From: an uncultured Methanosarcinales archaeon
GTDB taxonomy: Archaea; Nanobdellota; Nanobdellia; Woesearchaeales; CAYZNE01
DNA: 46,874 nucleotides
Direction: 5' to 3'
Assembly: GCA_964461035.1 (NCBI GenBank)
Contig: CAYWRI010000010.1
Span: 1-46,874 of the forward strand
Each line of letters opens with the position of its first letter. The stretch's first letter is position 1. Below, piece by piece: positions 25,373-45,548 of this stretch. The translations under genes and the position numbers were made by a program. Below the pieces are notes generated by a model. The model was given only the letters and a program-made list of their open reading frames with translations, did not search any database and was not told the origin of the DNA.

Positions 25373-27679
25373 TTGGCAGTTCAGAATTGGGGAAAATGTT
25401 ATTATTCTGTAGATCATGAAGGAGAATCAGTAGTTCTTAATGTTGATTGTGAAAGCTATTTGAGAGTTCCTAGTCTTGAAGATGATTCGGTTCTAATGTC
25501 CCATACTTGTGATCAACTTATAAAAAATAAAAATGTTACAAGAATTAGATTTTCTCAGAAAAGAGACTATGAATATAGTTTAGAAGAAACAGCCATATTA
25601 AAAGAGATTGCACTATATTTTAACGAATTATCAAAAAAACCAGAATTATTTACTTTAGAAACTTATCAAGGCAATGCTCATCTTCCAAGTATAAGTAGGT
25701 GGGTGTTGGACTTGAAGAATTTATTAATTGTTCAATTAAAATCAGATCCTATAAGTGCATATATTCATTTAACTCGTCTTAAACGAGATGTTGAAATAGC
25801 TCTAGAAAGATCATTAACTAAAGATGAGCAAAATGAAATAAATAGAGTTAAAGTTTTAGTTGATTCTATTTTAGACAAACTTGAAAAGACTCGTATGATA
25901 ACTCTTGTTAAAAACGAATTATCAGGTTATACTGAAGGTGATAGAACAATTTATAGACAAATTTTCAATCCAATAATTAAACCCGATTTTATGTTTAGTA
26001 AATTAATGTCTTTATATCCTAAAGACGGAACAGAAAAATTAAATTATTCGGTTAATGAAAATGAAATAGTCATATTTGACATACCTAAAAATATTCAGCC
26101 AATGTATCATGTTCTTCCACCTGAATTTAAATTAGATGAAGAACAATATGAAATTTTAGATTTGGCTAGAAAAATAATGTCTGAACATAAGCCAGAAAAA
26201 CAGGAATTTGTAAATCCTGAAAGAATGAGAGAAGTATTTTTCAATGTTGGTCAGGATCTTATTCTCGATCTCGCAAATTATAAAAACATAAAATTATCAC
26301 AAGTAGAAGTTATTGATTTAACAAAAATATTAGTAAGATACACTGTTGGATTTGGACTTATTGAAGTTTTACTTGAAGATCCCAAAGTCCAGGATATTGC
26401 AGTTAACTCACCCTATGGTTCAGGACCGATTTATTTAGTACATGAAGATTTTGATGAATGCATTACCAACATTATTCCAACTTCAACTGATGCAGAATCT
26501 TGGGCTTCTAAACTCAGAATGATTTCTGGTAGAGCATTAGATGAAGCAAATCCAATTCTTGATACAGAAATACTTATTCCTGATGTTGCTAGTGCAAGAG
26601 TTTCGGTTGTAACACAACCTTTATCACCTTCAGGATTATCTTTTTCTTTTAGAAGACAGAGAGATAAACCTTGGACTTTTCCTTTATTTATTAAAAATAA
26701 AATGATGTCTCCTCTTGCAGCAGGTCTTTTAAGTTTTTTTATTGATGGTAATAGAACCTTGCTTGTTGCAGGAACAAGAGGTTCTGGTAAAACTTCCTTT
26801 TTAGGAAGTGTATTAATAGAAATGATGAGAAAATTTAGAATAATAACTGTTGAAGATACACTTGAACTTCCAACATCCAGTTTAAGAAAATTAGGATATG
26901 ACATTGTTTCATTACAAGTTGCTGCGGCACTTTCTAAAGATAGTAATGAATTTACTGCAACTCAAGGAATACGATCAACATTAAGATTAGGAGATTCTGC
27001 ATTATTTGTTGGAGAAGTAAGAAGTAAAGAAGCAGTTGCACTTTTCGAAGCTATGAGAATTGGCGCGGGAGCAAATGTTGTTGCAGGAACATTTCATGCA
27101 GATAGTCCTTTTGGAATATATGATAGATGTGTAAATGCAATCGGAATACCAAATAATTCATTTAAAGCTTTAGATTTAGCAATTGTTGTAAACCCCATAA
27201 AATCTGCAGATGGTCTTCATAGATGGAGAAGAATAACAAGAATAACTGAAATAAGAAAAGATTGGAGACAAGATCCATTGATGGAACATGGTTTTGTTGA
27301 TTTAATGAAATACTCAACAGCAACAGATCAACTTGAACCAACTGATTCATTAATAAATGGTGATTGTGAATTAATAAAAGATATTGCTGCTAATATAAAA
27401 GAATGGGCAGGTGATTGGGATGCAGTATGGGCCAATATAAGTTTAAGATCAAAATGCAAAGAATATCTTGTTAAACAAGCTGAAATAAATAAATTTGATG
27501 ATATGCTTGAAGCAGAGTTTGTAATACAAAGTAATGATCAATTTCATAAAGCAATTAATTACGTTAGAAATACGAATCAAGAATTAGATTCTAATCATGT
27601 TTTTACAATATGGAAATCTTGGATTGATAAAGAAATTACTAAAAAAAAATTTAATAAAGAAGAGAATGAAGATATTTAA
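25373..27679 (+). CDS. FlaI/VirB11/TadA-family secretion ATPase (archaeal type IV pilus/archaellum-type) with a ~400-aa N-terminal extension
   Basis: TTG start 7 nt after a GGGGGG motif. Walker A AGTRGSGKTS. Asp box IITVEDTLEL. Walker B LFVGEVR. His box GTFHADSP. An SFSFRRQ motif precedes these. Confidence 0.75.
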   Translation: MAVQNWGKCYYSVDHEGESVVLNVDCESYLRVPSLEDDSVLMSHTCDQLIKNKNVTRIRFSQKRDYEYSLEETAILKEIALYFNELSKKPELFTLETYQGNAHLPSISRWVLDLKNLLIVQLKSDPISAYIHLTRLKRDVEIALERSLTKDEQNEINRVKVLVDSILDKLEKTRMITLVKNELSGYTEGDRTIYRQIFNPIIKPDFMFSKLMSLYPKDGTEKLNYSVNENEIVIFDIPKNIQPMYHVLPPEFKLDEEQYEILDLARKIMSEHKPEKQEFVNPERMREVFFNVGQDLILDLANYKNIKLSQVEVIDLTKILVRYTVGFGLIEVLLEDPKVQDIAVNSPYGSGPIYLVHEDFDECITNIIPTSTDAESWASKLRMISGRALDEANPILDTEILIPDVASARVSVVTQPLSPSGLSFSFRRQRDKPWTFPLFIKNKMMSPLAAGLLSFFIDGNRTLLVAGTRGSGKTSFLGSVLIEMMRKFRIITVEDTLELPTSSLRKLGYDIVSLQVAAALSKDSNEFTATQGIRSTLRLGDSALFVGEVRSKEAVALFEAMRIGAGANVVAGTFHADSPFGIYDRCVNAIGIPNNSFKALDLAIVVNPIKSADGLHRWRRITRITEIRKDWRQDPLMEHGFVDLMKYSTATDQLEPTDSLINGDCELIKDIAANIKEWAGDWDAVWANISLRSKCKEYLVKQAEINKFDDMLEAEFVIQSNDQFHKAINYVRNTNQELDSNHVFTIWKSWIDKEITKKKFNKEENEDI

Positions 27680-27864: not shown

Positions 27865-30195
27865 ATGAAAGAACCAAAGACAGATAAAGAATTGATTGAT
27901 ATGTATAAATCTAAAGTAGATTCAGAAATACATAAAGATTTGAATATTCCTAAAGATATTGGTTCTGAAATGTATTCAAAATTTAGAGTTAAAGTAGAAA
28001 ATAAATTAAAAAAAGATTTTAATAGTGATCAAAAGCCTTTAAAACAAATAACCTCTCGACAATATGATGAATTCAGAAATTCTTTTCTTCCAAAAAATCT
28101 TTCATGGTATGAAAAAGCTTGCAATGTTTCTGAGTCATTACTTCATATGCAAGCAAATCCTTCGAAAGTAGAGCAAACAAAAGAAGATTTAGCTACTTGT
28201 CATTTAAATTGTACTCCTGCAGGCATTACAAGTTTCGCAATTCTCGGACCATTAATATTCATGGTAGTATCTTCAATATTTGGATTCATATTTCCAATTC
28301 TTGCAGGCGACAATGATCCTCAAGCAGGATTGTTTTTTGTTATGTTTTCAATAGTTATTGGATTTATTTTAATGCTTCCATTAAACAAATTTCCAAGTTT
28401 TTTAGCAACATCTTGGAGAATGAAAGCAAGTAATCAAATGGTTCTTTCTATTTTCTATGTTGCAACATATATGAGACATACTTCTAATCTTGAATTAGCA
28501 ATTGATTTTGCAGCAGAACATCTTAGTCCACCATTATCATTAGACCTAAAGAAAGTTATCTGGGATGTTGAAACTCAAGAGCATTCATCTGTAAAAGAAT
28601 CTTTAGAAGCATATCTTGAAAAATGGAAAAAATATAATATGGAATATATTGAATCAATGCACCTCATAATATCAAGTTTATATGAAACATCTGAAACAAG
28701 AAGATTAAATGCACTTGACAAATCATTAGAAGTCATACTTGAAGAAACAAAAGATAGAATGATGCATTATGCTCAAAACCTTAAAACGCCTCTTGATACT
28801 TTGAATATGTTAGGTATTGTTCTTCCAGTTCTAGGTTTAGTAATTCTTCCTTTGATGGTAAGTTTTATGCCTCAAGTAAAATGGTATCATCTTGCAAGTG
28901 TATATAATATTGCATTACCAATTATTGTTTATTACTTAGGAAAAAACATATTGGCTACAAGACCTTCAGGATATGGTCATGTTGATTTATCCCATGTTTC
29001 AGAATACAAAAAATATTCTAATATAATTATAAAAACATCTAAAAAGGAAATTATTATAAGTCCTATTTATTTGGCAGCATTAGTTTTTATACTTTTTTTT
29101 CTTATTGGAACATTTCCTTTATTTTTACATGCAGTGGCTCCCGATTTTGATTTAGTTGTTGTTAGTGATTCTAATGGGGGCGTTGCTTTAAGAAACATAC
29201 TTCTTGTTTCTGATAAAACTACAATACAACATTCATTATTAGGTTATAGATTTGATTCTGAATCTTTAAGAAACATTGGTCCTTTTGGACTTGGGGCTAC
29301 GTTGTTATCGTTAATGATTCCTATTGCTTTTGGAATTTCTTTAGGATTATATTACAAATTGAAATCAAAAAATGTTATGGGTGTAAGAGAGAAAACAAGA
29401 AAACTTGAAGAAGAATTTGCTTCATCTCTTTTTCAATTAGGTAATAGATTAGGAGATGGAATTCCTCCTGAACTCGCTTTTAGTAAAGTATCGCAAGTAA
29501 TGACTGGAACAATATCAGGTAAATTTTTTGACTTAGTATCTTTGAATATAAGTAAAAAAGGAATGTCTGTTGAAAAAGCAATTTTTGACAAAAAAGAAGG
29601 TGCAATAAATTTTTTCCCTTCTAATTTAATAGATACTTCAATGAAAATTTTAATTGAGTCTTCAAAAAAAGGTTCGCTTATTGCAAGTAATGCACTCATT
29701 AATGTATCAAACTATATTAAACAAATGCACAGAGTTGATACAAGATTAACAGATCTTATGACTGATGTTGTATCAAGTATGAAAGCACAAATAAGTTTTT
29801 TAACACCTATAATTGCGGGAATAGTTATAGGAATCACAAGCATGATAACAACAATTCTGGGTTCTTTAACAACTCAAATGAACTCACTTTCTGAAATGGG
29901 AACAAGTTCTGGTGCAGGAGGTCTTTCAACTGTAAGTCTTTTATCCATGTTTAATGCGGGTGTTCCCACATACTATTTTCAGGTAATAGTTGGTTTATAT
30001 GTTGTTCAAATTGTTTTTATATTAACCATAATTAGCAATGGAATAGTAAACGGTTCTGATAAACTAAATGAAAAGTATCTTCTTGGTAAAAACATGATTT
30101 CAAGTACACTACTATATGTTTTTATTGGAGGTGTAGTTATACTTATATTTAACCTAATTGCAGGTTCAATACTTTCAGGTTTAAGTGCGGGATAA
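27865..30195 (+). CDS. FlaJ/TadC-like polytopic membrane platform protein (776 aa)
   Basis: Many TM segments alternate with cytoplasmic helical domains. The gene lies immediately downstream of the secretion ATPase, which is the canonical FlaI-FlaJ arrangement. Confidence 0.5.
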   Translation: MKEPKTDKELIDMYKSKVDSEIHKDLNIPKDIGSEMYSKFRVKVENKLKKDFNSDQKPLKQITSRQYDEFRNSFLPKNLSWYEKACNVSESLLHMQANPSKVEQTKEDLATCHLNCTPAGITSFAILGPLIFMVVSSIFGFIFPILAGDNDPQAGLFFVMFSIVIGFILMLPLNKFPSFLATSWRMKASNQMVLSIFYVATYMRHTSNLELAIDFAAEHLSPPLSLDLKKVIWDVETQEHSSVKESLEAYLEKWKKYNMEYIESMHLIISSLYETSETRRLNALDKSLEVILEETKDRMMHYAQNLKTPLDTLNMLGIVLPVLGLVILPLMVSFMPQVKWYHLASVYNIALPIIVYYLGKNILATRPSGYGHVDLSHVSEYKKYSNIIIKTSKKEIIISPIYLAALVFILFFLIGTFPLFLHAVAPDFDLVVVSDSNGGVALRNILLVSDKTTIQHSLLGYRFDSESLRNIGPFGLGATLLSLMIPIAFGISLGLYYKLKSKNVMGVREKTRKLEEEFASSLFQLGNRLGDGIPPELAFSKVSQVMTGTISGKFFDLVSLNISKKGMSVEKAIFDKKEGAINFFPSNLIDTSMKILIESSKKGSLIASNALINVSNYIKQMHRVDTRLTDLMTDVVSSMKAQISFLTPIIAGIVIGITSMITTILGSLTTQMNSLSEMGTSSGAGGLSTVSLLSMFNAGVPTYYFQVIVGLYVVQIVFILTIISNGIVNGSDKLNEKYLLGKNMISSTLLYVFIGGVVILIFNLIAGSILSGLSAG

Positions 30196-32439: not shown

Positions 32440-32460
32440 TAACTTATTTCTTTAAATTAA

Positions 32461-32612
32461 TTAGCGAGTCAAATAATTGGTATTATGTGCTTAATTATTA
32501 TAATGAAATTGTCTCGTCAGAAGTGGGCATCTTTGGGGGAGAGAGCACCTTTGAATAGTGTGTAAATTTAGTAAGAGCACAAAATAGTTATTAAAAACTT
32601 AACTCGCTAACT
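32461..32612. repeat. Intergenic repeat element, copy B, bounded by a 15-16-nt imperfect inverted repeat (32453-32468 / 32602-32625)
   Basis: aaattaattagcgagt ... actcgctaacttaattaa. The internal G+C-rich core is gggcatctttgggggagagagcacc. The element is homologous to copy A at 30801..30956. Confidence 0.6.
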
Positions 32613-32862
32613 TAATTAATAATTTATTTTCAACTAGTAATTAAATAATTCTGAAATACGATAGTTATATTTATAATAACCATAATAATTTTGGGTTTAT
32701 ATTTAAATAAAATAAGCTTACTTTATTCTAATTCAGTACTTTTGTTGTTCTGAATATACTTTATAACCAATACATTTATAATTGATAATATTGATTTAAT
32801 ATAATATCTATAAAGCTTTTAATTTGTTTAATTATTTAATTAATGTGTAGAAACTGAAGAAA

Positions 32863-34329
32863 ATGGTGAGTAATTCAGGATTTGATCAGAGAATTCTTAA
32901 TGCTATACTTTATTTTATGAATAAAGGTTATGAATTTAATCAAATAAATTCATATTTATTGAACAAAGGATTTTCTCAACAAGTAATATCACAATACTAT
33001 AATTATGCTTTATCCAAATTTAAAAACAATCAATCTCAAAATTCTTTTCAAAATCAAGCAGTATCAAATACGCAAGCAACAATAAATCAATCTCAAAATT
33101 CAGGATTAACACATAAGAACACAAGATTACTTGTTCAAATTGTAGAATATATAAGAAATATGGAAAATAGAGGATATACTTTTCAACAAATTAAATCTTA
33201 TCTTATTCAAAGAGGTTATCCTTCAAATTTAATAGATGATGCAGCTGCACATCTTCAGCCCAACCAATTTCAAAATTCTCAACAACAATATGCAAATAAT
33301 TTAAATAATAATCAAAGTTCAATTTCAAGTTCTAATAATCCTAATGAAACTACAATCACAAATAAACATGAATTACACGTTCCTTCTAAAACCATGTTTC
33401 ATTTAATGGCAATATTTGCAGTCATTATTCTTTTAGGAGGGGGAATGTTTTATTTTTTTAATTTAAATCCTAATAAAGATGTGCTTTTAGATTTAATAAT
33501 TTATAATGAGGAAAAACTGCTTGAACCTGGAGCAGATTTAACTTTTGACTTAACAATTTTAAGTATGGGTGCAAGAGAAATGTTTGATATAACTTTAACA
33601 TATAAAATTTTAGATGAAAATCTTAATGTTATTGATTCAAATCAAGATACTGTTGCAATTCATACTCAGACGCGTATTGCACCAAGTATTAAACTTCCAC
33701 GTAATATTCCTGAAGGAATTTACACAATGAAAGTTTATTCTGATTATTCTGGAAAAACAGCACAATCTAGTTTTGATTTTAGAGTTGAAAACTTTCAAGT
33801 TTCGGGAATTAATAGTAGTGTTAACGATACACTTCCAAATAATTTGACTACAACTATTCCAAATAATAATCTTCCTGATGTAATATTACCTCCAGCTATA
33901 GACGACCCTAATAGTTATGAAGTAATTAGTTTTAGAGAATTTTTAGATAAAATATTTAGAACAAGCGATAGTTCTGAAAGAGCAATTCAAAAATGTCTTA
34001 ATATTAGAGAAAATCGAAATAAAGAAACTTGTATAGAAATGGTTTCTATAGAATACAATAATTCAAATATCTGCGCAGAAATAAACTCAACAGATATCAG
34101 AGATGATTGCTATTTATCACACTTGTTTAATAAAGACTTAACTGTTTGTGATAATATTATTAATTCAGATTCAAAAGCTAATTGCAATCTTGTAAAAGAT
34201 TTATTCATTTTAAGTCAATATGATGATGAGAATATGACTATGGAAGAAATAATTGCAAATACGGATATTAATATTACTATAATAACAGACAGCACTCTTG
34301 AAGAAGTAGAGGTTCTCACAATAGAATGA
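32863..34329 (+). CDS. Single-pass membrane protein: duplicated ~40-aa N-terminal cytoplasmic domain, Q/N-rich linkers, TM, Cys-rich extracellular C-domain
   Basis: NAILYFMNKGYEFNQINSYLLNKGFSQQVI compares with VQIVEYIRNMENRGYTFQQIKSYLIQRGYPSNLI. The TM is HLMAIFAVIILLGGGMFYFF. There are 6 Cys in the last 120 aa. Confidence 0.5.
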   Translation: MVSNSGFDQRILNAILYFMNKGYEFNQINSYLLNKGFSQQVISQYYNYALSKFKNNQSQNSFQNQAVSNTQATINQSQNSGLTHKNTRLLVQIVEYIRNMENRGYTFQQIKSYLIQRGYPSNLIDDAAAHLQPNQFQNSQQQYANNLNNNQSSISSSNNPNETTITNKHELHVPSKTMFHLMAIFAVIILLGGGMFYFFNLNPNKDVLLDLIIYNEEKLLEPGADLTFDLTILSMGAREMFDITLTYKILDENLNVIDSNQDTVAIHTQTRIAPSIKLPRNIPEGIYTMKVYSDYSGKTAQSSFDFRVENFQVSGINSSVNDTLPNNLTTTIPNNNLPDVILPPAIDDPNSYEVISFREFLDKIFRTSDSSERAIQKCLNIRENRNKETCIEMVSIEYNNSNICAEINSTDIRDDCYLSHLFNKDLTVCDNIINSDSKANCNLVKDLFILSQYDDENMTMEEIIANTDINITIITDSTLEEVEVLTIE

Positions 34330-34829
34330 TATCTAAAAGAGCCATGATGCAAATGATGAATTTTATTATTGTTGTAGTTTCTATTTTTCTTGTTTTGTTA
34401 ATAAGTTTAATATTTTATAGAACTCTTGATGTGACCGTCAGTGAAAGTCAATATATTGATATGGTAAATAAAATTGAAGTTGAAGTTGATTCACTTTTAT
34501 ATCAAACTTATGGAACAAGTGAAGAAATTTATTTTAATACTCCTAAAAATACTGAAAAAATATGCTTTGTTGATTACGATGTTGCTAATTTATTTGCAAA
34601 TATTGGTGATGAAAATGCTAAAGAAATTGCAAATAGAATAAAAACTTCAGAACTTTCTCCAAAACCAAATGTTATAATTCTCAATTCAAAAGAGAACAAA
34701 TATACAACATTATATGCAGGACCAATAACTGTTTATCCATCTGATGAAATATATTGTATTATTGTTCAAGGAAAACTTAATCTTGAACTAAAAAATATTG
34801 GTAAAAAAATATTGGTGAATGAAAAATGA
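34326..34829 (+). CDS. Small N-terminally membrane-anchored (possibly pilin-like) protein, translationally coupled to its neighbours
   Basis: ATGA overlaps are present at both ends. The N-terminus MISKRAMMQMMNFIIVVVSIFLVLLISLIFY is a charged stretch followed by a hydrophobic stretch. Confidence 0.4.
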   Translation: MISKRAMMQMMNFIIVVVSIFLVLLISLIFYRTLDVTVSESQYIDMVNKIEVEVDSLLYQTYGTSEEIYFNTPKNTEKICFVDYDVANLFANIGDENAKEIANRIKTSELSPKPNVIILNSKENKYTTLYAGPITVYPSDEIYCIIVQGKLNLELKNIGKKILVNEK

Positions 34830-36190
34830 AAAAAATATGGTTAATTTTTAGTTTATTATTGTTAATGTCTTTAGTTATACAATCAGTATTTGCAGATACC
34901 GTGGATGCAACGTCTTTAGAATATGTTTTTAGTGATAAAGCAGATAAATTAATGATTGGATCAAATTTATGTTTAGAAGAATCAGGTGCAAAATGTGCTC
35001 CTGTAATAAGTTTTTCTGTACAACAAGATGCTAATGTAAATATCTTGATTAATTTAGCAGATTCTGTTAATATATCTGGAAGAGCTTGTTTAGTTCAAGA
35101 AATAGAGCACACTACTTGGAATGAAGTAATGGGTTCAATATTTTCGTGCACTTATTTTAATACTGATGGAGCAGCTATTAGTTTAGAAAAACAATTTTTT
35201 CAAGGAATAAATAAAGTTGTTTTAATTCCTGATTCAGGAACAGGAAATACTGATTTAACACAGGTGTCACTAATTTTAACAACAGAAAATTCGAGCTTTG
35301 GAAATAATATGTCTAACACATCAAATATGCCTAATGAGCCCGATGTGATAATTGATCCAATTACAATATTATCACAGGAGGATGTGAGTAAATGCATGAT
35401 AGAAAATGTTTATTTTGAATTTTCTGAAGTTATGTTAAACATGCCTGTTAATATAAAAATAAAAACAACTGAATGTGCAAACTCTGTTCTAAGAATTCAA
35501 ATATTCAAAAAAGGATTAACTGATTTACTTGTTTCAGAACAACAAGCATTAGTAAACAAGAATGAAATTTCATTATTATGGATTTCTGATAAACTTGGAG
35601 AATTCTATGTTAAAGTAATATCTGAAAACACCAAAAAATCAGAACCAGTCAAAATCATAGATTTTAATGTATATCAAATACTTGAAGAAAACAAATTCTA
35701 TGAAGTTATGTCTCAAGTTCGACAAGTATCAAGATCAAATGTGAGAATTGCAATAGACATATGTGCTGCAATGCCCAGTGTAGTTGAGCGAGATGCATGC
35801 TTTGAAGAATTAGCAATTAGTTCTCAAAACAAAAATATTTGTTCAAAAATAATTGAAGATAATAGGAGATCTTCTTGTAAAGAAGTTTTTGTTTTATATG
35901 GTGATTTAGGTGGGTGCATTGAATCAGATAATAAGGCAATGTGTGCATTAGTAGGGTTGATAGCTAAAGACCAAGATTTTATTATGTATTTTTCAAAACC
36001 AGATAATGCTGCTAACAATGAAGATATAATAATGAAGAAAAAGCTCAGAACAAATTCATTTTGGTTGATTATAATTATTTTACTAATATTGTGTATAATT
36101 GTGTTTGTTGCAATGGAACTATGGAATAAAAAATTACACAAAACACAGAAAGTAAGAAAAAGAAAAAATATTCGAAAAAAAGAAAAATAG
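34826..36190 (+). CDS. Secreted Cys-rich surface protein with Sec signal peptide and C-terminal TM anchor plus K/R tail
   Basis: Signal peptide MKKIWLIFSLLLLMSLVIQSVFA. C-terminal anchor FWLIIIILLILCIIVFVAMELW followed by KKLHKTQKVRKRKNIRKKEK. About 17 Cys are present. Confidence 0.5.
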   Translation: MKKIWLIFSLLLLMSLVIQSVFADTVDATSLEYVFSDKADKLMIGSNLCLEESGAKCAPVISFSVQQDANVNILINLADSVNISGRACLVQEIEHTTWNEVMGSIFSCTYFNTDGAAISLEKQFFQGINKVVLIPDSGTGNTDLTQVSLILTTENSSFGNNMSNTSNMPNEPDVIIDPITILSQEDVSKCMIENVYFEFSEVMLNMPVNIKIKTTECANSVLRIQIFKKGLTDLLVSEQQALVNKNEISLLWISDKLGEFYVKVISENTKKSEPVKIIDFNVYQILEENKFYEVMSQVRQVSRSNVRIAIDICAAMPSVVERDACFEELAISSQNKNICSKIIEDNRRSSCKEVFVLYGDLGGCIESDNKAMCALVGLIAKDQDFIMYFSKPDNAANNEDIIMKKKLRTNSFWLIIIILLILCIIVFVAMELWNKKLHKTQKVRKRKNIRKKEK

Positions 36191-39454: not shown

Positions 39455-40144
39455 TTATTTAGAACATAAATTTGATAAAGATAATTCATATTTGGAATAT
39501 GTATCATCTATCTCTTTTTTTGTATTTTCAGGGGGATTGTTTGTCATATTTGAAACTATTAAATGTGTTTTTGCTTTAATAAATAAAATATATGCTAATA
39601 CGTTAAAACAATTACCTAAATTAATTATTTCTGTTTTTGAAAGACTTATTTTATTTGTATCAGGATTATTAAATTTTAAATAGGGTAAAAACTTTAGAAT
39701 CAGTTTTTTCCTGGTTGCTAAATTATAAAGGTTTATAGATCTTGTAAGTAAATCATTTGAAGAAAAATCAGAATATTCGGTAATTAAATAATTTACATTA
39801 TCTTCTAATAAATTACTTGTTTCTATTTCTAAATTACTTTCTGTTCTTTTTTCTTGATATTGTAATTCCGTTAAAGCGCAAATAGTTATAGTGTAATCTG
39901 TTTCGGATTGATAAATTTTAAGAATATCATTTAATTTCTGCATTAAATAGTTCTGTGTTTTTTCAAAATCATTGTCTTTAAATATAAATTCTTTATCTTC
40001 AGAATTTAATTTAATTTCACAAATATCTTCCATGCATAATTTTGCGTAATTCTCTTCGTAATTAACCAATATTTTTTTTGCCCAACTAAGGTATATATTT
40101 ACTTTATCTTCTGCATTATTATTAATCATTTTTATCAATTTCAT
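39455..40144 (-). CDS. Hypothetical protein (229 aa)
   Basis: No recognizable motif. It is co-transcribed (4-nt overlap) with 40141..41310. Its 3' end abuts the gatE stop. Confidence 0.35.
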   Translation of the reverse strand: MKLIKMINNNAEDKVNIYLSWAKKILVNYEENYAKLCMEDICEIKLNSEDKEFIFKDNDFEKTQNYLMQKLNDILKIYQSETDYTITICALTELQYQEKRTESNLEIETSNLLEDNVNYLITEYSDFSSNDLLTRSINLYNLATRKKLILKFLPYLKFNNPDTNKISLSKTEIINLGNCFNVLAYILFIKAKTHLIVSNMTNNPPENTKKEIDDTYSKYELSLSNLCSK

Positions 40145-41310
40145 TTTTTTTGAAAATATTCCGAATAAGTAATGTTTGGATTGTCAAAGTTATTATCTAT
40201 AAAAGATTGATATTTATTATATTTTTTGTATAAATCAACTATTGAACTTTGAACATGATTTAATCTGCCTAAAGCATTTAAACCGTTTGTTATATTTTCA
40301 AAATCATGAGTTATAATAGGACCTACGTGATGAATAGTTCGCATTGTAATATAACGTATTTCAGGTATTAAAAAATCTTTATTTCCTTTGCCTAAATTGG
40401 TTATAATATATTTATAAACAAGCTTTATATTTTTCAGCTCAAACTTATACATAAGTTCATAAGATTCTAACCCTATGTTTGTTGAAATTTTATGGAGGGC
40501 GTGAATTTTATGAAGTGAGTCTAAATTGTTTTCATCAAATTTATGAACTAGTTTAGCAATATTATCTTTATAATTAAGATAATTATTATATAAATATCCA
40601 TTTTCTGTTGATTTATTCCGAGAAGCTTGAATTTTTTTAGGAGATTTTTCTTGATTTATTTGAACAAAATATTCTTCACATAAATCAAATACGAATTCAT
40701 AGTTTTCAATATTATTAAAAATATCTTCTTTGTAATACAATTGATTTTTTATCTTTTTAGAAAACGTTTCATTAGAACTTGTTTCTGTTTCATTTTTTTT
40801 AATTTCAAACGCAATATTTATGATATCATATATTGTTTTAGCTAGTACTTCTTCATTTTTAGTGTATAAGTTCCATGCTGTCTCTCCTTGTAAAAAAATA
40901 TGATTTAGTACATCTGATAAAGGTGCGTTTAGCAATCTAATTAATTTTGCATTTCTTTCAGTTAAATATGGTTTTTCTCCAAATCTTTTTTGAAGAAAAA
41001 ATTCAGGTTTAATCTCTTTAGTTTTTATTAATCTATAACGTACCCAGAAACCTCCTCCAGTAGTATCTAAATTAGAATCAAGAGGTTTTTTTAAAGCAGT
41101 TTTCAAGGTATTTAAAACATCATCAAGAGTTTGTATTGATTTAAAATCTGATTTATTATTATGTTTAAAGTCTGAATCAATTTTTTCTGTTAATTTTATA
41201 TATTTATCAAGTAGCCATCCCAACTCTACAGATCTATTCATTAAATTAATATATTGTTGAATTTTTGCAACATTTAATTCAGTGTAATCATAAGTTTTTA
41301 TTAACTCCAT
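40141..41310 (-). CDS. Hypothetical protein (389 aa)
   Basis: No recognizable motif; very AT-rich. It is the first gene of a two-gene operon immediately left of repeat element R1. Confidence 0.35.
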   Translation of the reverse strand: MELIKTYDYTELNVAKIQQYINLMNRSVELGWLLDKYIKLTEKIDSDFKHNNKSDFKSIQTLDDVLNTLKTALKKPLDSNLDTTGGGFWVRYRLIKTKEIKPEFFLQKRFGEKPYLTERNAKLIRLLNAPLSDVLNHIFLQGETAWNLYTKNEEVLAKTIYDIINIAFEIKKNETETSSNETFSKKIKNQLYYKEDIFNNIENYEFVFDLCEEYFVQINQEKSPKKIQASRNKSTENGYLYNNYLNYKDNIAKLVHKFDENNLDSLHKIHALHKISTNIGLESYELMYKFELKNIKLVYKYIITNLGKGNKDFLIPEIRYITMRTIHHVGPIITHDFENITNGLNALGRLNHVQSSIVDLYKKYNKYQSFIDNNFDNPNITYSEYFQKK

Positions 41311-41394
41311 TTTAACTGAAAAGTCTCATTTATTTATAAAAGTTTCATTTAGAATTACTTAAAAGTGATTACAAAATGCATTATTATTTATTTA

Positions 41395-41556
41395 ATCATT
41401 GCTTAAAAGTTTTAGTTCAATATTTTTGATAACATTTTTTATTGATTACTCAACATATTGCTTAGTCAATACATTTATTATACAATAGATTGGTTAATCA
41501 ATAAATAAAATATTTTTTGATAGAATTTTATTGCTAAAAGTTTTAAGCAAAAATCA
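41395..41556. repeat. Palindromic repeat element R1 (terminal inverted repeat tgcttaaaagtttta / aaaagttttaagca). It contains two TTGATTAANCAA-like palindromes. It is homologous to R2 at 46405..46562
   Basis: tgcttaaaagttttagttcaa...ttgattactcaa...ttggttaatcaa...ttgctaaaagttttaagcaaaaa. Confidence 0.6.
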
Positions 41557-41774
41557 TAAGTTTTAATTCTAAATTTTTACTTAAAAAAATGATATTACTA
41601 AAATAATTTAAAATAATTTAAATTTCTTAAGATATGGTTTTAGATTTTTCTCTCGACGAAAAAAATATTATTAAATAATTAAGATCATCCAATAAACCAA
41701 TTTTAGTATTGATTAATCGATAGATTTAAATATGAGTTTATCTCAATCACATTGAGTGAGTTATCAAATGAAAA

Positions 41775-42104
41775 ATGAAAAAGAAAAAAGAAAATAAATC
41801 TGAAGAAAAAGGACCATTAATAGAATTTAAAGGATTTTTAACATTATTCATACTTCATGAATTATCTAAGAAAGCTCAATGTGGTGACGAATTAGCCGTA
41901 AGAATTGGTCGACGAAAAAAAGATAAATTAACTCCTGGAACAATATATCCAACTCTTAAAAGATTAAGAAAATTAAAACTAATAAATTTCAAAAGATTTG
42001 GAAGAAAAAAAGTATATACTTTAACAGAATTGGGTAAAAATGAGCTAAAAAAATTATATTTAGTGATAAAACATTACTTTAAAGGTTTAAAAAGCAAAAT
42101 TTAA
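41775..42104 (+). CDS. PadR-family transcriptional regulator
   Basis: LTPGTIYPTLKRLRKLKLI...YTLTELGKNEL is the canonical PadR winged HTH. Confidence 0.75.
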   Translation: MKKKKENKSEEKGPLIEFKGFLTLFILHELSKKAQCGDELAVRIGRRKKDKLTPGTIYPTLKRLRKLKLINFKRFGRKKVYTLTELGKNELKKLYLVIKHYFKGLKSKI

Positions 42105-42121
42105 CTTAACAAAAATTAAAA

Positions 42122-43156
42122 ATGGCAATAACTAAAAAAAATCTTGGTAAAAAAACAGAAGCTCAAACAGGAAAATTAGAGAAAAAAGATTACAAAGAAA
42201 TTCTTAAAGAAATAAATTCATATAATAAAAATAGAAAAATCCTTCAAAAAAAGTTTAATCTTAAAAATTTAAAAAAAGTTTATCTAAAACATATGAAAAA
42301 ACCTGAATCGTTAGAATCAGCGTTAGTAAAATTTGAATCAAATTTTTTTAGTCATTTAAAATTATTTGTCCAATATTATCATAATTTAGTACAAAATATT
42401 GAACAAGAAATTGGTGCGGAAGATAATGTTCAAGTTAGAATTCTTAATTATTTTCATAATTTATTATTAAGAGCTGGTTCACAAAGTAGAAAAATAAGAG
42501 TTCCTGATAAAGACGTTTTGATTGAATTTGAAAAAGAATTCCGAAAATCATTAAATAAGCAACTTAAGGAAATCAAAATTGATGAAAAAAAGATTAAAGA
42601 AGAAGTAAAAGGTAAAATAAGTGAAGTTATTCATGGAAAACCCGTTGCATTAATGAGAAAAGTTCATGGTAAATTTGTGATGCTTAGTGATGAGGAAGAG
42701 AAACTTGAAAACGAAATAAAAGAAGTGACTGATACTATTGATGAAAATCCGTTATTATTTATTCCAAGATTTCTAAAGGTCGCAGATAATTATCCTAATG
42801 TTATAAAAAATATTAAAATTATAATAGAAGATATTCATCTTCTTGAAAGAGATCTTTTAATAAATTTCAAAGAAGAAATGCGTCAAATGGGTGCAATATT
42901 TGATCTTTTAACACAATATGGTTGGAAAAAAGGACAATCCGACTTTGATTCAATAAAAGAAGAATATAAAAAAATTATGGATTTAGAAAAAAAAGAAAGT
43001 ATTACTGAATACAAAATGGATGAGAGAATTAAAAATATGGTTCTTTTTGATGAAAAAGTATTTAATGATATGATGAGATATTTATATGAAACTGCAGATA
43101 GATTTGAACGAGTTCAAAAACAAAAAGGAAGAAATACTTTAGATTTAGCTACTTAA
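42122..43156 (+). CDS. K/E-rich helical hypothetical protein (344 aa), co-transcribed with the PadR gene
   Basis: The gap to the PadR gene is 17 nt. No recognizable domain. Confidence 0.35.
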   Translation: MAITKKNLGKKTEAQTGKLEKKDYKEILKEINSYNKNRKILQKKFNLKNLKKVYLKHMKKPESLESALVKFESNFFSHLKLFVQYYHNLVQNIEQEIGAEDNVQVRILNYFHNLLLRAGSQSRKIRVPDKDVLIEFEKEFRKSLNKQLKEIKIDEKKIKEEVKGKISEVIHGKPVALMRKVHGKFVMLSDEEEKLENEIKEVTDTIDENPLLFIPRFLKVADNYPNVIKNIKIIIEDIHLLERDLLINFKEEMRQMGAIFDLLTQYGWKKGQSDFDSIKEEYKKIMDLEKKESITEYKMDERIKNMVLFDEKVFNDMMRYLYETADRFERVQKQKGRNTLDLAT

Positions 43157-43690
43157 TTATCTAAGTACAAACCATTCTCGAATTAAATCATTAGTTGTTT
43201 TTAAACTATTTAATTTATCTGATTTGGTTTGTAATTCTATTGGATTTTTTGAATAATAAGGTAAATTCAATTGTTGTGCTAAATAAAATGCTTCAGAATC
43301 AGAACTTGAATAAATTAAAACTTGAGCATTATTTTTTTTAATATGTTTTCCATGATATGGTATTAATTCATTAATATAAAATGGGAGAAAACAAGAGTCA
43401 ATTCCTGTAGATGTTGCTAAAATCTTTATTTCAGCAGAATTTAAACAGGAAGATTGTTCTTTATATTTATTTAATTTGTTTGTTAATTCGGTTTTTCTTT
43501 GATTTGAAATTTCAAAAGGAAAATCTGCATCCAAAATATAAATATCAAATCCATCAGTATTTTCTATAATTTGTTGACCATTTTTATAATCAAAAGCAAA
43601 AGTAACATTTTCTATTTGATTTAACTGAACAAGTGTATCAAGTAATTCTGTATTTCTATAATGTAAATCATCAAGCCAAAATATTTTCAT
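43157..43690 (-). CDS. CheY-like receiver (REC) domain protein with a ~60-aa C-terminal extension
   Basis: MKIFWLDD is an acidic pair. IYILDADFP is a phospho-acceptor Asp candidate. KILATSTG is the T/S position. HGKHIKK is the conserved-Lys position. Confidence 0.45.
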   Translation of the reverse strand: MKIFWLDDLHYRNTELLDTLVQLNQIENVTFAFDYKNGQQIIENTDGFDIYILDADFPFEISNQRKTELTNKLNKYKEQSSCLNSAEIKILATSTGIDSCFLPFYINELIPYHGKHIKKNNAQVLIYSSSDSEAFYLAQQLNLPYYSKNPIELQTKSDKLNSLKTTNDLIREWFVLR

Positions 43691-43815
43691 AAAGATTACT
43701 TTTCACTAATATTGTTTTTTAACTAAAAAACCCTGTCTTTTTAGTACAAATATCATATTTTATTGAGTTTTCATTCTTTATTTTTAAAGAAATCTATTCT
43801 GTTTCAGAAAAACTA

Positions 43816-43835
43816 CGCATAATGTTGATTATGCG
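43816..43835. promoter_or_regulatory. Perfect palindrome CGCATAAT-GTTG-ATTATGCG between the ligase-like and REC genes; a related copy lies at ~45534-45554 in the PIN/recombinase divergent region
   Basis: The hairpin is followed on the minus strand by TAGTTTTTCT, so it may also act as a terminator for the ligase-like gene. The second site is cgcataatgtttatatgcaa. Confidence 0.45.
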
Positions 43836-43838
43836 AAG

Positions 43839-44696
43839 TTAAATAAGGAAATTTTCTTTTTCAAAAAATAAAGGCATAACTTCCGTTCTAATATAACTAG
43901 CTTTACGATTCAAAATAGATCTTAACTTAGCCGTTTCTGATTTAGATAATTTTGTTTCATTAAGAACATCTTCAATAGTTCTTTCAATAATTGAATGTGG
44001 TGTAAAATTTCCATTTAAATGTGAAATTGAATTTTGTCCAACTTTAATCAATCTTCTTTTAGTAACATATTTTTCGACACCTTTCTTTTTAGAATCAGTT
44101 TCGACAAAATCAGAATGATAAATTTTACTGAATCTTAATCCATTTTGAAATTCATCAGAATATTGATGAACTACAACCCCTTCAGGAACTCCTGAATATA
44201 ATTTACTTTTTTCTAGAGCTTCTTCAATTATTAATGGATTAACCTTGCCCTCAGATAATAATGGAATAGATTTAATCTTTTTATCCAACCCCATTAATTC
44301 TATCCAATATTGAGATTCTTTAGGATGTAAAAATTTAGATTTACTTTGATCATATATTCCAATCATAAAAAATTTATTAAGATTTTCTTCATCATATAGA
44401 ATATGACCATATCCTTTATGTGTAAATTCTCCAAAAATAATAAAATCTTTAGGTAAATCAAAAATTTCTGGATTTAAATAATCATATAAAAATCTCCTAA
44501 ATTGATCAAAATAATATTTTTTAGAATTACCTATGGGTGCACCTCTACTCCAACCAGCAATATGGTTCATGTTTTTCCTTATCGAAACATTAGCACCATC
44601 AACTTTTTCAAATACATAAACACCTTTATCGATAATGGTTTCATTGCAATAAGGTTCTTTTATTGAGGGAAATTTGAAATTACTCATTTGTATCAC
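43839..44696 (-). CDS. Covalent nucleotidyltransferase of the RNA/DNA-ligase superfamily, minimal RNA-ligase-like (285 aa, no OB domain)
   Basis: Motif I is VFEKVDGANVSIR (KxDG). Motif III is FIIFGEF. Motif IV is PEGVVVHQ. A motif-V-like RFSKIYH is present. The start overlaps the end of the PIN gene. Confidence 0.45.
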   Translation of the reverse strand: MIQMSNFKFPSIKEPYCNETIIDKGVYVFEKVDGANVSIRKNMNHIAGWSRGAPIGNSKKYYFDQFRRFLYDYLNPEIFDLPKDFIIFGEFTHKGYGHILYDEENLNKFFMIGIYDQSKSKFLHPKESQYWIELMGLDKKIKSIPLLSEGKVNPLIIEEALEKSKLYSGVPEGVVVHQYSDEFQNGLRFSKIYHSDFVETDSKKKGVEKYVTKRRLIKVGQNSISHLNGNFTPHSIIERTIEDVLNETKLSKSETAKLRSILNRKASYIRTEVMPLFFEKENFLI

Positions 44697-45435: not shown

Positions 45436-45548
45436 ATTAATAAGGATATATTTAATATTTATAAAGTTTTCTATAAATAATTACTTAAAAGTGGTAAGTG
45501 AAATAATATTAGACAATCTTTATAAAGAAAGCTTCGCATAATGTTTAT

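What the first reader, a model, noticed from the sequence alone, without database searches (positions are those of the whole stretch)
32863..36190. Translationally coupled three-gene cell-surface operon sharing a six-Cys module
Seen: three ORFs overlap by ATGA at 34326 and 34826. Protein 1 (488 aa) has a duplicated ~40-aa N-terminal domain (GYEFNQINSYLLNKGF / GYTFQQIKSYLIQRGY), two Q/N-rich low-complexity linkers, one TM and a Cys-rich ectodomain. Protein 2 (167 aa) has an N-terminal anchor. Protein 3 (454 aa) has a Sec signal peptide, ~17 Cys and a C-terminal TM with a polybasic tail. Proteins 1 and 3 share a ~70-aa six-Cys module (ETCIEMVSIEYNNSNICAEINSTDIRDDC against DACFEELAISSQNKNICSKIIEDNRRSSC, and CDNIINSDSKANCNLV against CIESDNKAMCALV). 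Inference: a disulfide-stabilised surface complex, possibly for adhesion or host interaction. It sits immediately downstream of repeat element B.
Basis: seen in the sequence. Interest (0 to 1): 0.55.

Follow-up and report, generated by a model that had tools for sequence, protein, structure and literature searches.

The report
Conserved DPANN three-protein envelope operon
Three tightly linked genes of a small-genome (DPANN-type) archaeon encode membrane-anchored surface proteins, one of them pilin-like and two sharing a cysteine-containing helical repeat that is common in metagenomes but matched no model in Pfam, NCBIfam or the PDB; what the proteins do is still only inferred.

Summary
Three ORFs (32863-34329, 34326-34829, 34826-36190) overlap by ATGA. 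Their order is kept in five related lineages, and a sixth contig ends inside p2. All six carry a conserved BRE/TATA-like motif upstream.

The "six-Cys module" is real (p1 vs p3 BLASTP E=8e-10; all six Cys invariant). It is not private to this operon. It consists of three units of a 26-residue Cys-Cys repeat, modelled as helical. That repeat occurs, usually in long arrays, in at least 2,760 protein clusters and matched no Pfam, NCBIfam or PDB entry.

- **p1:** two homologous cytoplasmic three-helix domains (borderline RecX_HTH), one TM, an Ig/CARDB-like beta-sandwich, then the module.
- **p2:** a conserved [KR][KR]A leader before its hydrophobic segment, and a confident model with a long helix plus a beta head. 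A distant homologue lies within a run of pilin-like genes in an Aenigmarchaeota MAG. Foldseek did not retrieve pilins.
- **p3:** Sec signal, two unassigned Cys-bearing regions, the module, a C-terminal TM and a polybasic tail. It has 13 Cys, not about 17.

Best reading: a lineage-specific membrane-anchored envelope complex with a pilin-like subunit, coupled to a conserved cytoplasmic domain. Complex formation, disulfides and adhesion are inferred, not shown. Interest is moderate.

The parts
32810..32826 (+). BRE/TATA-like promoter motif upstream of p1 (window: ATAAAGCTTTTAATTTG; other lineages: cGAAAcCTTTATATA)
   Evidence: Alignment of the p1 upstream regions from six lineages shows a conserved block A.A.CTTT..A about 35-50 nt before the ATG. 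Reading it as an archaeal BRE/TATA element is inference.
32863..34329 (+). p1, 488 aa, bitopic N-in membrane protein
   Evidence: ORF. Homologues P0002, P0003, P0004, P0008 and P0054 at 33-42% identity. AF2 model m8e9c05510dc8.
32887..33036 (+). p1 cytoplasmic three-helix domain 1 (aa 9-58)
   Evidence: AF2 helices 9-20, 25-34 and 39-58, pLDDT about 80. Homologous to domain 2 (hhalign 98.7%).
33115..33249 (+). p1 cytoplasmic three-helix domain 2 (aa 85-129), borderline RecX_HTH3 match
   Evidence: Pfam PF21981, 27.1 bits against a cut-off of 26, on residues 108-127. Second most conserved segment of p1, after the juxtamembrane motif: 61.6% mean pairwise identity.
33361..33393 (+). p1 juxtamembrane motif [HN]-[KR]-H-E-x-H-x-P-x-[KR]-T (aa 167-177)
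   Evidence: H169, E170, H172, P174 and T177 are invariant. 64.6% mean identity. Function unknown.
33403..33459 (+). p1 transmembrane segment (aa 181-199)
   Evidence: Kyte-Doolittle window 2.38. Flank charge +1 on the N side and -1 on the C side in five of six lineages, -4 on the C side in the sixth.
33484..33786 (+). p1 extracellular beta-sandwich (aa 208-308), Ig/CARDB/MG2-like
33922..34224 (+). p1 Cys-repeat module (aa 354-454): two capping helices plus three 26-residue Cys-Cys helical units (Cys 378, 390, 404, 416, 429, 441)
   Evidence: All-helical in AF2, pLDDT about 75. Homologous to the p3 module. Cys spacings 12, 14, 12, 13, 12.
34225..34326 (+). p1 acidic C-terminal tail with two short predicted strands (aa 455-488)
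   Evidence: AF2 strands 471-475 and 483-487, low to medium confidence. Conserved I-x-[LI]-T-[VI] pattern.
34326..34829 (+). p2, 167 aa, pilin-like protein with a class-III-type N-terminus (M-I-S-K-R-A | M-M-Q..., hydrophobic 13-31)
   Evidence: K4 and A6 invariant. AF2 pLDDT 80.4, helix 4-58 plus an 8-strand head with C80 and C144 invariant. Distant homologue P0164 within a run of pilin-like genes. Foldseek found no pilin hit.
34826..36190 (+). p3, 454 aa, type-I membrane protein
   Evidence: ORF. Homologues P0006 (61% identity) and the p3 genes of L001, L004, L007 and L011.
34826..34894 (+). p3 Sec-type signal peptide (aa 1-23, ...SVFA|DTV)
   Evidence: Hydrophobic 4-22. Small residues at -3 and -1 (x-A|E or D) in five of the six family members; P0006 has a longer N-terminus with no such site in the stretch shown. 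The cleavage site is inferred.
34895..35275 (+). p3 N-terminal ectodomain (aa 24-150) with four invariant Cys (49, 57, 88, 108); fold not determined
   Evidence: Invariant columns. No Pfam, NCBIfam or PDB sequence match.
35366..35665 (+). p3 middle ectodomain (aa 181-280) with invariant C190 and C217; secondary structure not determined here
   Evidence: Alignment. No detectable homology to the p1 sandwich (hhalign probability 3%).
35687..35980 (+). p3 Cys-repeat module (aa 288-385; Cys 313, 325, 339, 351, 364, 373)
   Evidence: BLASTP against p1 E=8e-10. HMM score 125 bits. Spacings 12, 14, 12, 13, 9.
36059..36187 (+). p3 C-terminal TM (aa 412-430) and polybasic cytoplasmic tail (aa 431-454, net +10)
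   Evidence: KD 3.47. Tail charge +3 to +13 across six lineages. No PGF-CTERM motif on direct reading.

Best explanation
The operon encodes a membrane-anchored envelope assembly specific to one small clade of low-GC DPANN-type archaea.

Proposed mechanism:
- One promoter drives three tightly linked genes, so the products are probably made in matched amounts.
- p3 is exported by Sec. Its signal is removed, and it stays anchored by a C-terminal TM with a polybasic tail inside the cell.
- p1 inserts with its N-terminus inside. Two three-helix domains and an invariant juxtamembrane motif remain in the cytoplasm. A beta-sandwich, a flexible linker and the Cys-repeat module lie outside.
- p2 inserts through a class-III-type (prepilin-like) N-terminus. 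Its hydrophobic helix stays in the membrane and carries a small beta head.
- The paralogous Cys-repeat modules of p1 and p3 pair with each other, or bind the same partner, and act as a rigid scaffold that is probably disulfide-stapled.
- The beta-sandwich and the unassigned p3 ectodomains form the exposed surface. p1's conserved cytoplasmic domain ties the assembly to an intracellular partner.

Shown here: gene structure, conservation of the trio, homology of the modules, predicted topology, the predicted folds of p1 and p2, and the pilin-like gene context of p2 and p1 relatives.

Inferred: the physical complex, disulfides, prepilin processing, and the biological role (surface or host contact, or envelope organisation).
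For: Operon and conservation:
- ATGA overlaps at both junctions.
- The p1-p2-p3 order is kept in the window, L001, L004, L007 and L011; the L013 contig ends inside p2. Flanking genes differ between them.
- A promoter-like motif is conserved upstream of p1 in all six.

Module:
- Homology between p1 and p3 with all six Cys invariant.
- The module is helical in the AF2 model.

Topology:
- One TM in p1; a signal plus a C-terminal TM and basic tail in p3; an N-terminal hydrophobic segment in p2.
- Every Cys of p1 lies on the outside-predicted part.

p2 pilin-like:
- The [KR][KR]A leader is invariant and lies six residues before a 19-residue hydrophobic segment at 13-31.
- Documented archaeal pilin processing sites include RA|QI and RA|VS (PMC4371748).
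- AF2 gives a long helix plus a beta head at pLDDT 80.
- The remote homologue P0164 (hhalign 96.3%, E=1.6e-9) sits among five consecutive genes, three with canonical KG|/KA| leaders.
- The distant p1-like P0125 is flanked by two large genes with KKG|Q and KKA|Q leaders.

Cytoplasmic coupling:
- p1 domain 2 and the juxtamembrane motif are the most conserved segments, at 62-65% against 40-48% for the ectodomains.
Against: - There is no direct evidence of interaction; no multimer prediction was possible.
- Foldseek of the p2 model against the PDB returned no pilin or archaellin (best E=0.16).
- No prepilin peptidase (Peptidase_A24) gene was found in the window.
- The T2SSE ATPase lies 5 kb upstream only in this genome. 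It is absent within +/-6 kb in the other lineages.
- Distant relatives of p1 and p2 occur without the other two genes, so the trio is not an obligate unit across DPANN.
- The repeat occurs in thousands of unrelated proteins, so sharing it does not by itself imply pairing.
- Disulfide pairing could not be deduced. Many of these organisms live in anoxic settings, where extracellular Cys may stay reduced.
Confidence: 0.45

Rival explanations
1. Transmembrane sensor or scaffold logic, as in ToxR-ToxS, TcpP-TcpH or RodZ. Here p1 is the active component: its ectodomain senses something outside, perhaps with p2 and p3 as co-receptors or stabilisers. Its cytoplasmic helical domains then bind DNA or a cytoplasmic or cytoskeletal partner.
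For: - Architecture: cytoplasmic HTH-like three-helix domains, one TM, a Cys-containing ectodomain, and a roughly 170-aa N-anchored partner encoded immediately downstream.
- The cytoplasmic domain 2 and the juxtamembrane motif are the most conserved parts of the operon.
- Borderline RecX_HTH hits.
Against: - No OmpR/PhoB-type winged helix or any other DNA-binding family match.
- The RecX_HTH3 match is 27.1 bits on 20 residues.
- The PDB profile search finds only a designed three-helix miniprotein, at E=0.31.
- By direct count the domains are near neutral in charge.
- p2 did not match ToxS or any other solved structure.
Confidence: 0.2
2. Dedicated accessory set of a type IV pilus-like machine. 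p2 is a (minor) pilin polymerised by the T2SSE-family ATPase at 25373-27679, with the polytopic protein at 27865-30195 as platform. p1 and p3 act as base, anchor or tip-associated proteins.
For: - p2's leader, hydrophobic domain and lollipop-shaped model.
- Relatives of p2 and p1 lie in neighbourhoods of pilin-like genes.
- The window has a T2SSE ATPase followed by an 8-TM protein 2.7-7.5 kb upstream.
Against: - The ATPase is separated from the operon by unrelated genes (DUF1003, tRNA-Pro, L37Ae, Pcc1, prefoldin, UPF0147).
- The ATPase is not near the operon in the other lineages.
- The 8-TM protein has no T2SSF match.
- There is no fold match of p2 to pilins.
- p1 and p3 have ordinary TM anchors rather than class III signals.
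Confidence: 0.15
3. There is no specific complex. Three independent envelope proteins of unknown function happen to be co-transcribed, and the shared module is simply a promiscuous extracellular repeat.
For: - The repeat occurs in at least 2,760 clusters in many architectures.
- p1-like and p2-like genes occur alone elsewhere.
Against: - Strict conservation of order and tight spacing in five lineages, plus a sixth cut inside p2, despite changing neighbours.
- The p1 and p3 modules share the same capped three-unit form. In the top of the exhaustive search only p1-type and p3-type proteins match it end to end as a single stretch, and the array proteins do not.
Confidence: 0.12
4. The regularly spaced Cys pairs bind metals or are redox-active, for example Zn or Fe-S sites between adjacent helices, rather than forming structural disulfides. 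The module would then be an extracellular redox or metal-handling element.
For: - Strict 12/14 periodicity of Cys in a helical repeat.
- Among the array proteins the Cys count is even in only 61 of 143.
- The lineages carry anaerobe-type genes nearby, such as rubrerythrin and desulfoferrodoxin.
Against: - No cofactor-binding family match.
- Odd Cys counts can be explained by the N-terminal G-C seen in the consensus of the array proteins, read here as a lipobox-type Cys.
- Nothing was tested directly.
Confidence: 0.05

Closest known systems
Archaeal type IV pilin-like proteins (class III signal peptide substrates of PibD/FlaK/EppA), including minor pilins
   Same: p2 has a short basic leader ending in [KR]A six residues before a 19-residue hydrophobic segment at 13-31. 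Its model shows a long N-terminal helix plus a beta head with a conserved Cys pair. It is small (167 aa). A remote homologue lies inside a run of genes with canonical KG|/KA| leaders. RA| processing sites are documented (PMC4371748).
   Different: There is no sequence or Foldseek match to any pilin or archaellin. Six semi-polar residues separate the putative cleavage site from the hydrophobic core. No peptidase gene is in the window. The gene sits between two non-pilin membrane protein genes rather than next to PilB/PilC.
Sel1-like repeat proteins / Helicobacter cysteine-rich proteins (Hcp), i.e. disulfide-bridged alpha/alpha repeats (comparison from my own knowledge of the family)
   Same: Extracytoplasmic tandem helix-turn-helix repeats with two Cys per unit, placed on neighbouring helices.
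   Different: The unit is 26 residues with 12/14 Cys spacing, not about 36 residues. No Sel1 or TPR Pfam match appeared in p1, p3 or 99 array proteins. No PDB sequence match. The relation is by analogy only.
ToxR-ToxS (and TcpP-TcpH) of Vibrio; RodZ of rod-shaped bacteria (from my own knowledge)
   Same: A bitopic protein with a cytoplasmic helical (HTH-type) domain, one TM and a Cys-bearing or beta-rich ectodomain. For ToxRS, a small N-anchored partner gene lies immediately downstream.
   Different: No homology to OmpR-type or XRE-type HTH domains. The organism is an archaeon. There is a third, type-I membrane protein. The partner p2 has no structural match to any solved protein.
RecX three-helix repeats (Pfam PF21981/PF21982)
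   Same: p1's duplicated N-terminal domains are three-helix units with the G-[YF]-x-x-x-Q-I-x-x-Y-L signature and give RecX_HTH hits.
   Different: The hits are marginal (27.1 bits against 26, on 20 residues). There are two units separated by Q/N-rich linkers and tethered to a membrane, not three contiguous units in a soluble RecA regulator.
CARDB / macroglobulin MG2 / CBM-type beta-sandwich domains of cell-surface proteins
   Different: Sequence scores are below the Pfam thresholds (MG2 15.8 bits against 32.8). This is a generic fold that says nothing about ligand.

Membership tests
Type IV pilin-like / class III signal peptide proteins (p2) | Short positively charged leader ending in [KR][GA] that precedes, rather than follows, the hydrophobic domain | tested here: met
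   M-x-x-K-[KR]-A is conserved in all five full-length p2 sequences; K4 and A6 are invariant. My crude regex found only two ORFs of this kind in the window: p2, and an internal alternative start of the 8-TM ORF at 29758/29779. No FlaFind run was possible.
Type IV pilin-like / class III signal peptide proteins (p2) | Hydrophobic H-domain of about 20 residues directly after the processing site | tested here: met
   Residues 13-31, KD 3.16. However, six semi-polar residues intervene after the putative site.
Type IV pilin-like / class III signal peptide proteins (p2) | Pilin fold: extended N-terminal alpha-helix packed on a beta-sheet head, structurally similar to solved pilins or archaellins | tested here: inconclusive
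   The AF2 model (pLDDT 80.4) has helix 4-58 plus 8 strands. Foldseek against the PDB gave no pilin or archaellin, best E=0.16.
Type IV pilin-like / class III signal peptide proteins (p2) | Cleavage by an A24 prepilin peptidase | not testable with these tools
   No Peptidase_A24 gene among the window ORFs scanned. The rest of the genome was not available.
Type IV pilin-like / class III signal peptide proteins (p2) | Genomic association with other pilin-like genes or with PilB/PilC | tested here: inconclusive
   Remote homologue P0164 lies in a five-gene pilin-like run. A T2SSE ATPase is 5 kb upstream in the window only and not in the other lineages.
RecX three-helix domain (p1 N-terminus) | Pfam RecX_HTH match above the gathering threshold | tested here: inconclusive
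   PF21981 27.1 bits against 26, on residues 108-127 only. PF21982 17.7 bits against 26. Precomputed weak hits in 2 of 4 homologues. NCBIfam RecX models score far below their cut-offs.
Sel1-like / Hcp disulfide-bridged helical repeats (module) | Match to Sel1 or TPR-type profiles | tested here: not met
   No such Pfam hit in p1 or p3, in 10 array proteins or in 99 array proteins. No PDB sequence hit with a 40-sequence repeat profile.
ToxR-like membrane-bound transcription activators (p1) | Cytoplasmic OmpR/PhoB-type winged-helix DNA-binding domain | tested here: not met
   No Trans_reg_C or other DNA-binding family at E<=1.
CARDB / MG2 beta-sandwich (p1 208-308) | Sequence match above the family threshold; fold similarity | tested here: inconclusive
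PGF-CTERM / archaeosortase substrates (p3 C-terminus) | PGF motif immediately before the C-terminal TM and basic tail | tested here: not met
   Direct reading of ...KKKLRTNSFWLIIIILLILCIIVFVAM... and of the five homologues shows no PGF. No NCBIfam or Pfam hit.
Phage or anti-phage defence proteins | Match to PHROGs or PADLOC models | tested here: not met
   No hit at E<=0.05.

The most novel reading that the evidence does not exclude
The trio is a previously undescribed archaeal trans-envelope receptor. In this reading a pilin-like subunit (p2) and two bitopic proteins are held together by a new disulfide-stapled (or metal-binding) 26-residue helical repeat domain. Contact with a host cell or surface is relayed across the membrane to the invariant juxtamembrane H-E-x-H motif and the conserved three-helix domains of p1. 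The repeat itself would be a new, very large family of extracytoplasmic domains in uncultivated archaea, and possibly bacteria, that current domain databases miss entirely.
Probability: 0.15. Interest if true: 0.7.

Novelty: new variant of a known kind. Interest (0 to 1): 0.4.

Why it matters
DPANN archaea depend on contact with other cells, yet almost none of their envelope proteins have assigned roles. This trio is conserved and promoter-equipped. It combines a pilin-like protein with two anchored proteins and a strongly conserved cytoplasmic domain, which makes it a concrete candidate for envelope organisation or contact sensing in one such clade.

Separately, the 26-residue Cys-Cys helical repeat is abundant (at least 2,760 clusters at 50% identity) and is invisible to Pfam, NCBIfam and the PDB. 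Defining it as a family would annotate thousands of 'hypothetical' secreted proteins.

If the operon turns out to be just another set of surface proteins, the gain is limited to that annotation.

Tried and rejected
- **Phage or defence origin.** No PHROGs or PADLOC hits, and the neighbours are housekeeping genes.
- **Concatenated p2+p3 profile search.** It returned only P0006, because TM words swamped the candidate list. That search was wasted.
- **afdb50 fold search.** The library was unavailable.
- **ATPase/platform link in the Aenigmarchaeota contig.** I suspected two large genes near the p2-like gene were homologues of the window's T2SSE ATPase and platform. BLAST showed no similarity; they look like coiled-coil proteins.
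- **Larger duplication between p1 and p3.** I tested whether the p1 beta-sandwich and the p3 middle domain are also paralogous. hhalign probability was 3%.
- **Deducing the disulfide partners.** I looked at how 12/14-spaced Cys runs start and end, and at Cys parity in 143 array proteins. The result was inconclusive.
- **PDB sequence searches.** Profiles of p1, p2, p3 and the repeat found nothing useful.
- **Literature searches.** Queries on DPANN or Woesearchaeota cysteine-rich surface proteins found nothing relevant.
- **p3 structure prediction.** The last prediction slot then went to p2, so the two N-terminal domains of p3 remain unmodelled.

Full report
**1. What is in the sequence**

The window is low-GC (about 27%) and archaeal. 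It carries:
- GatD and GatE directly downstream of the finding;
- aEF-1alpha, NAC, RtcB, archease and Nre;
- L37Ae, Pcc1, prefoldin-beta and UPF0147 directly upstream (L013 shows the same string of genes);
- tRNA-Pro and 5S rRNA.

The three ORFs are exactly as reported: p1 32863..34329 (488 aa), p2 34326..34829 (167 aa) and p3 34826..36190 (454 aa). Both junctions read ATGA. A GGTGA lies 7 nt before the p3 start, and a GAGGT lies 12 nt before the p2 start.

**2. Conservation**

A word-indexed search found only three relatives of p1, at 33-42% identity. The exhaustive profile search added two more, P0008 and P0054, plus one distant relative, P0125.

Wherever the contig allows, the same three genes follow one another in the same order. 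The product sizes are 446/168/446, 450/183/448, 463/166/432 and 442/169/419. L013 ends inside p2.

Spacing is tight but not always overlapping, ranging from a 4-nt overlap to a 135-nt gap.

The flanking genes differ. In most lineages ABCE1 lies upstream and AsnRS or AspRS downstream. In the window the neighbours are UPF0147 and GatD. The trio therefore moves as a unit.

A BRE/TATA-like block (cGAAAcCTTTATATA; window 32810-32826) is conserved 35-50 nt upstream of p1 in all six lineages, so the operon has its own promoter.

The only named relative is 'Candidatus Woesearchaeota archaeon' (P0125). Two species-representative MAGs with the operon are titled 'uncultured Methanosarcinales archaeon'. 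I treat that label with caution, given the gene content and the 24-31% GC.

**3. The shared module**

BLASTP of p1 against p3 gives 32% identity over 106 residues, E=8e-10. In nine sequences (four p1, five p3) all six Cys align. An HMM of the module finds only p1 and p3 in the six-frame translations of the window and of the loci held at that point, L001-L007.

In the AF2 model of p1 the module (residues 354-454) is all-helical at pLDDT of about 75. Each Cys sits on one of two neighbouring helices.

An exhaustive HMMER search with a six-sequence profile found 2,760 cluster representatives at E<=1e-3 and 420 at E<=1e-10. Most matched 5-14 times per protein.

In these proteins the Cys spacing alternates 12 and 14, so the period is 26. 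The approximate consensus is C-x2-I-x6-[RK]-D-x-C-[YF]-x2-V-A-x4-D-x2-[IL]-C.

The operon's module is therefore three such units (spacings 12, 14, 12, 13, 12 in p1 and 12, 14, 12, 13, 9 in p3) preceded by two capping helices. The same capped three-unit form occurs at the C-terminus of other ectodomains. Examples are P0150 after a repeated N-terminal region that I read as FN3-like, and P0048 and P0129, which carry two copies.

Of 143 array proteins, 97 have an N-terminal hydrophobic stretch. The consensus N-terminus contains an L...G-C that I read as lipobox-like. They are therefore mostly extracytoplasmic.

No Pfam or NCBIfam model matches the repeat in p1, p3, 10 array proteins or 99 array proteins. 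A 40-sequence repeat profile finds nothing in the PDB. My literature searches did not find a description of it.

Disulfide formation is plausible but untested. Cys-run statistics could not tell which Cys pair with which.

**4. p1**

The AF2 model (four sequences, mean pLDDT 58, domains 65-85) shows the following:

| Residues | Feature |
|---|---|
| 9-58 | Three-helix domain 1 |
| 85-129 | Three-helix domain 2 |
| between and after these | Q/N-rich disordered linkers |
| 181-199 | Transmembrane segment |
| 208-308 | Beta-sandwich |
| 312-353 | Disordered linker, about 40 residues |
| 354-454 | Cys-repeat module |
| 455-488 | Acidic tail with two short strands |

The two helical domains are homologous (hhalign 98.7%, E=1.5e-16). 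They give borderline RecX_HTH hits: PF21981 at 27.1 bits against a cut-off of 26, on 20 residues.

Domain 2 (61.6% mean pairwise identity) and the juxtamembrane motif [HN]-[KR]-H-E-x-H-x-P-x-[KR]-T (64.6%) are the most conserved parts of the whole operon. The ectodomains are at 40-48%.

The following support an N-in, C-out orientation:
- the charge bias across the TM;
- all six Cys lying after the TM;
- the location of the homologous module in p3.

**5. p2**

All five full-length sequences start M-x-x-K-[KR]-A, followed by six semi-polar residues and a 19-residue hydrophobic stretch. K4 and A6 are invariant. This is the arrangement of class III (prepilin-type) signals, in which the processing site precedes the hydrophobic domain. 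Sites such as RA|QI (EpdA) and RA|VS (PilA4-6) are listed for archaeal pilins (PMC4371748).

The AF2 model is confident (pLDDT 80.4, pTM 0.65). It has one helix from residue 4 to 58, then an eight-stranded head with one helix. The two invariant Cys (80 and 144) sit on strands. That is the overall shape of a pilin. However, Foldseek against the PDB returned no pilin or archaellin (best E=0.16), so fold membership remains open.

Independent support comes from gene context.
- A metagenome scan with the p2 profile found a distant homologue, P0164, in Ca. Aenigmarchaeota (hhalign 96.3%, E=1.6e-9 over the whole head, including both Cys). It lies in a run of five consecutive small genes with N-terminal hydrophobic segments. 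Three have canonical leaders: MNNKG|AIQ, MLRKG|QMH and MNNRKA|QAS.
- The distant p1-like gene P0125 in a Woesearchaeota MAG is flanked by two large genes with KKG|QVT and KKA|QIS leaders.

In the window a T2SSE-family ATPase (25373-27679) and an 8-TM protein (27865-30195) lie upstream. Unrelated genes intervene, and the other lineages show no such linkage. No Peptidase_A24 gene is in the window.

**6. p3**

- The signal peptide has small residues at -3 and -1 in five of the six family members.
- Two ectodomain regions (24-150 and 181-280) carry six invariant Cys and have no detectable relatives.
- The module spans 288-385.
- A short stalk follows, then the TM at 412-430 and a polybasic tail with net charge +3 to +13.
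- There is no PGF-CTERM motif.
- The protein has 13 Cys, not about 17.
- Its structure was not modelled, because the last prediction slot went to p2.

**7. Interpretation**

Established here:
- a conserved, separately promoted three-gene unit;
- all products membrane-anchored with external domains;
- paralogous helical Cys-repeat modules in p1 and p3;
- a pilin-shaped p2 with a class-III-type leader;
- a strongly constrained cytoplasmic portion of p1.

I therefore favour a heteromeric envelope assembly with a pilin-like subunit that is mechanically or informationally coupled to the cytoplasm (confidence about 0.45). Adhesion or host contact is a reasonable role for a DPANN organism, but no result here supports it.

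The rivals are:
- a sensor or scaffold logic like ToxRS or RodZ (0.2);
- accessory parts of a type IV pilus-like machine (0.15);
- mere co-transcription of unrelated envelope proteins (0.12);
- a metal or redox role for the Cys arrays (0.05).

The first two overlap with the favoured reading rather than excluding it.

**8. Novelty and score**

The proteins belong to no described family. The kind of thing they are is familiar: a membrane-anchored surface assembly built from Ig-like sandwiches, helical repeats and a pilin-like protein.

The most useful by-product is recognition of an abundant, unannotated 26-residue Cys repeat.

I rate the finding as a new variant of a known kind, with interest 0.4.

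Noticed in passing
One lies about 105 nt upstream of tRNA-Pro and one about 250 nt upstream of p1. The p1-proximal copy sits inside a 21-nt inverted repeat (32452-32472 / 32599-32619) and folds better than shuffles (z = -3.1 on the + strand, -3.8 on the - strand). It has no Rfam match at E<=1. It could be a small RNA, a MITE-like element or a shared regulatory region.
   Followed up: partly
window 25373-27679 and 27865-30195: A 768-aa T2SSE-family (PilB/archaellum-type) ATPase is followed by a 776-aa protein with at least 8 predicted TM segments and no Pfam family. This is probably a divergent type IV pilus-like assembly pair. Any link to p2 is unproven.
   Followed up: partly
window 873-3512 (879-aa ORF): A large ORF with no Pfam family contains an internal direct repeat of 87 nt at 999-nt spacing (2057-2143 / 3056-3142, 70% identity). 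This suggests an internal duplication of a domain of about 333 aa.
   Followed up: no
window 39455-46385: GC drops to 22-25% over 40-46 kb. Most ORFs there have no family. The region ends with an RNA ligase (43839-44696) and a tyrosine recombinase or phage-integrase-family gene (45549-46385). It may be an integrated element.
   Followed up: no
L011 7841-7975 (between p2 and p3): In one lineage the p2-p3 junction carries a 135-nt insert with a GC-rich core (…GTTGTCGAGGGTTGGGTCCTACGGACCGACAG…) in an otherwise AT-rich genome. It may be a small inserted element or a structured RNA.
   Followed up: no
L018/L019 9370-12487 (Ca. Aenigmarchaeota, GCA_011772255.1): Five consecutive small genes (198, 151, 349, 157 and 169 aa) all have N-terminal hydrophobic segments, and three have canonical class III leaders. 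All are annotated hypothetical and none has a Pfam family. This is an unannotated pilin-like gene cluster.
   Followed up: partly
L010 1833-4025 and 7375-10434 (Ca. Woesearchaeota, GCA_016188175.1): Two large paralogous proteins (730 and 1019 aa; the latter with 20 Cys) carry canonical KKG|Q and KKA|Q prepilin-type leaders. They flank the distant p1-like gene.
   Followed up: partly
L008, L009 (CAYZNE010000029.1, CAYONI010000001.1): The GTDB species-representative MAGs carrying the operon are titled 'uncultured Methanosarcinales archaeon'. Their loci have about 30% GC and a DPANN-like gene set (form III RuBisCO, ABCE1, rubrerythrin), and the only named relative of p1 is Woesearchaeota. The titles may be a generic or wrong label.
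   Followed up: no
L020 1-75 (contig with the 14-repeat protein P0007): A DsbD_TM (CcdA-like) gene lies about 6 kb from the largest Cys-repeat array protein. This is a single case, so no inference is drawn.
   Followed up: no
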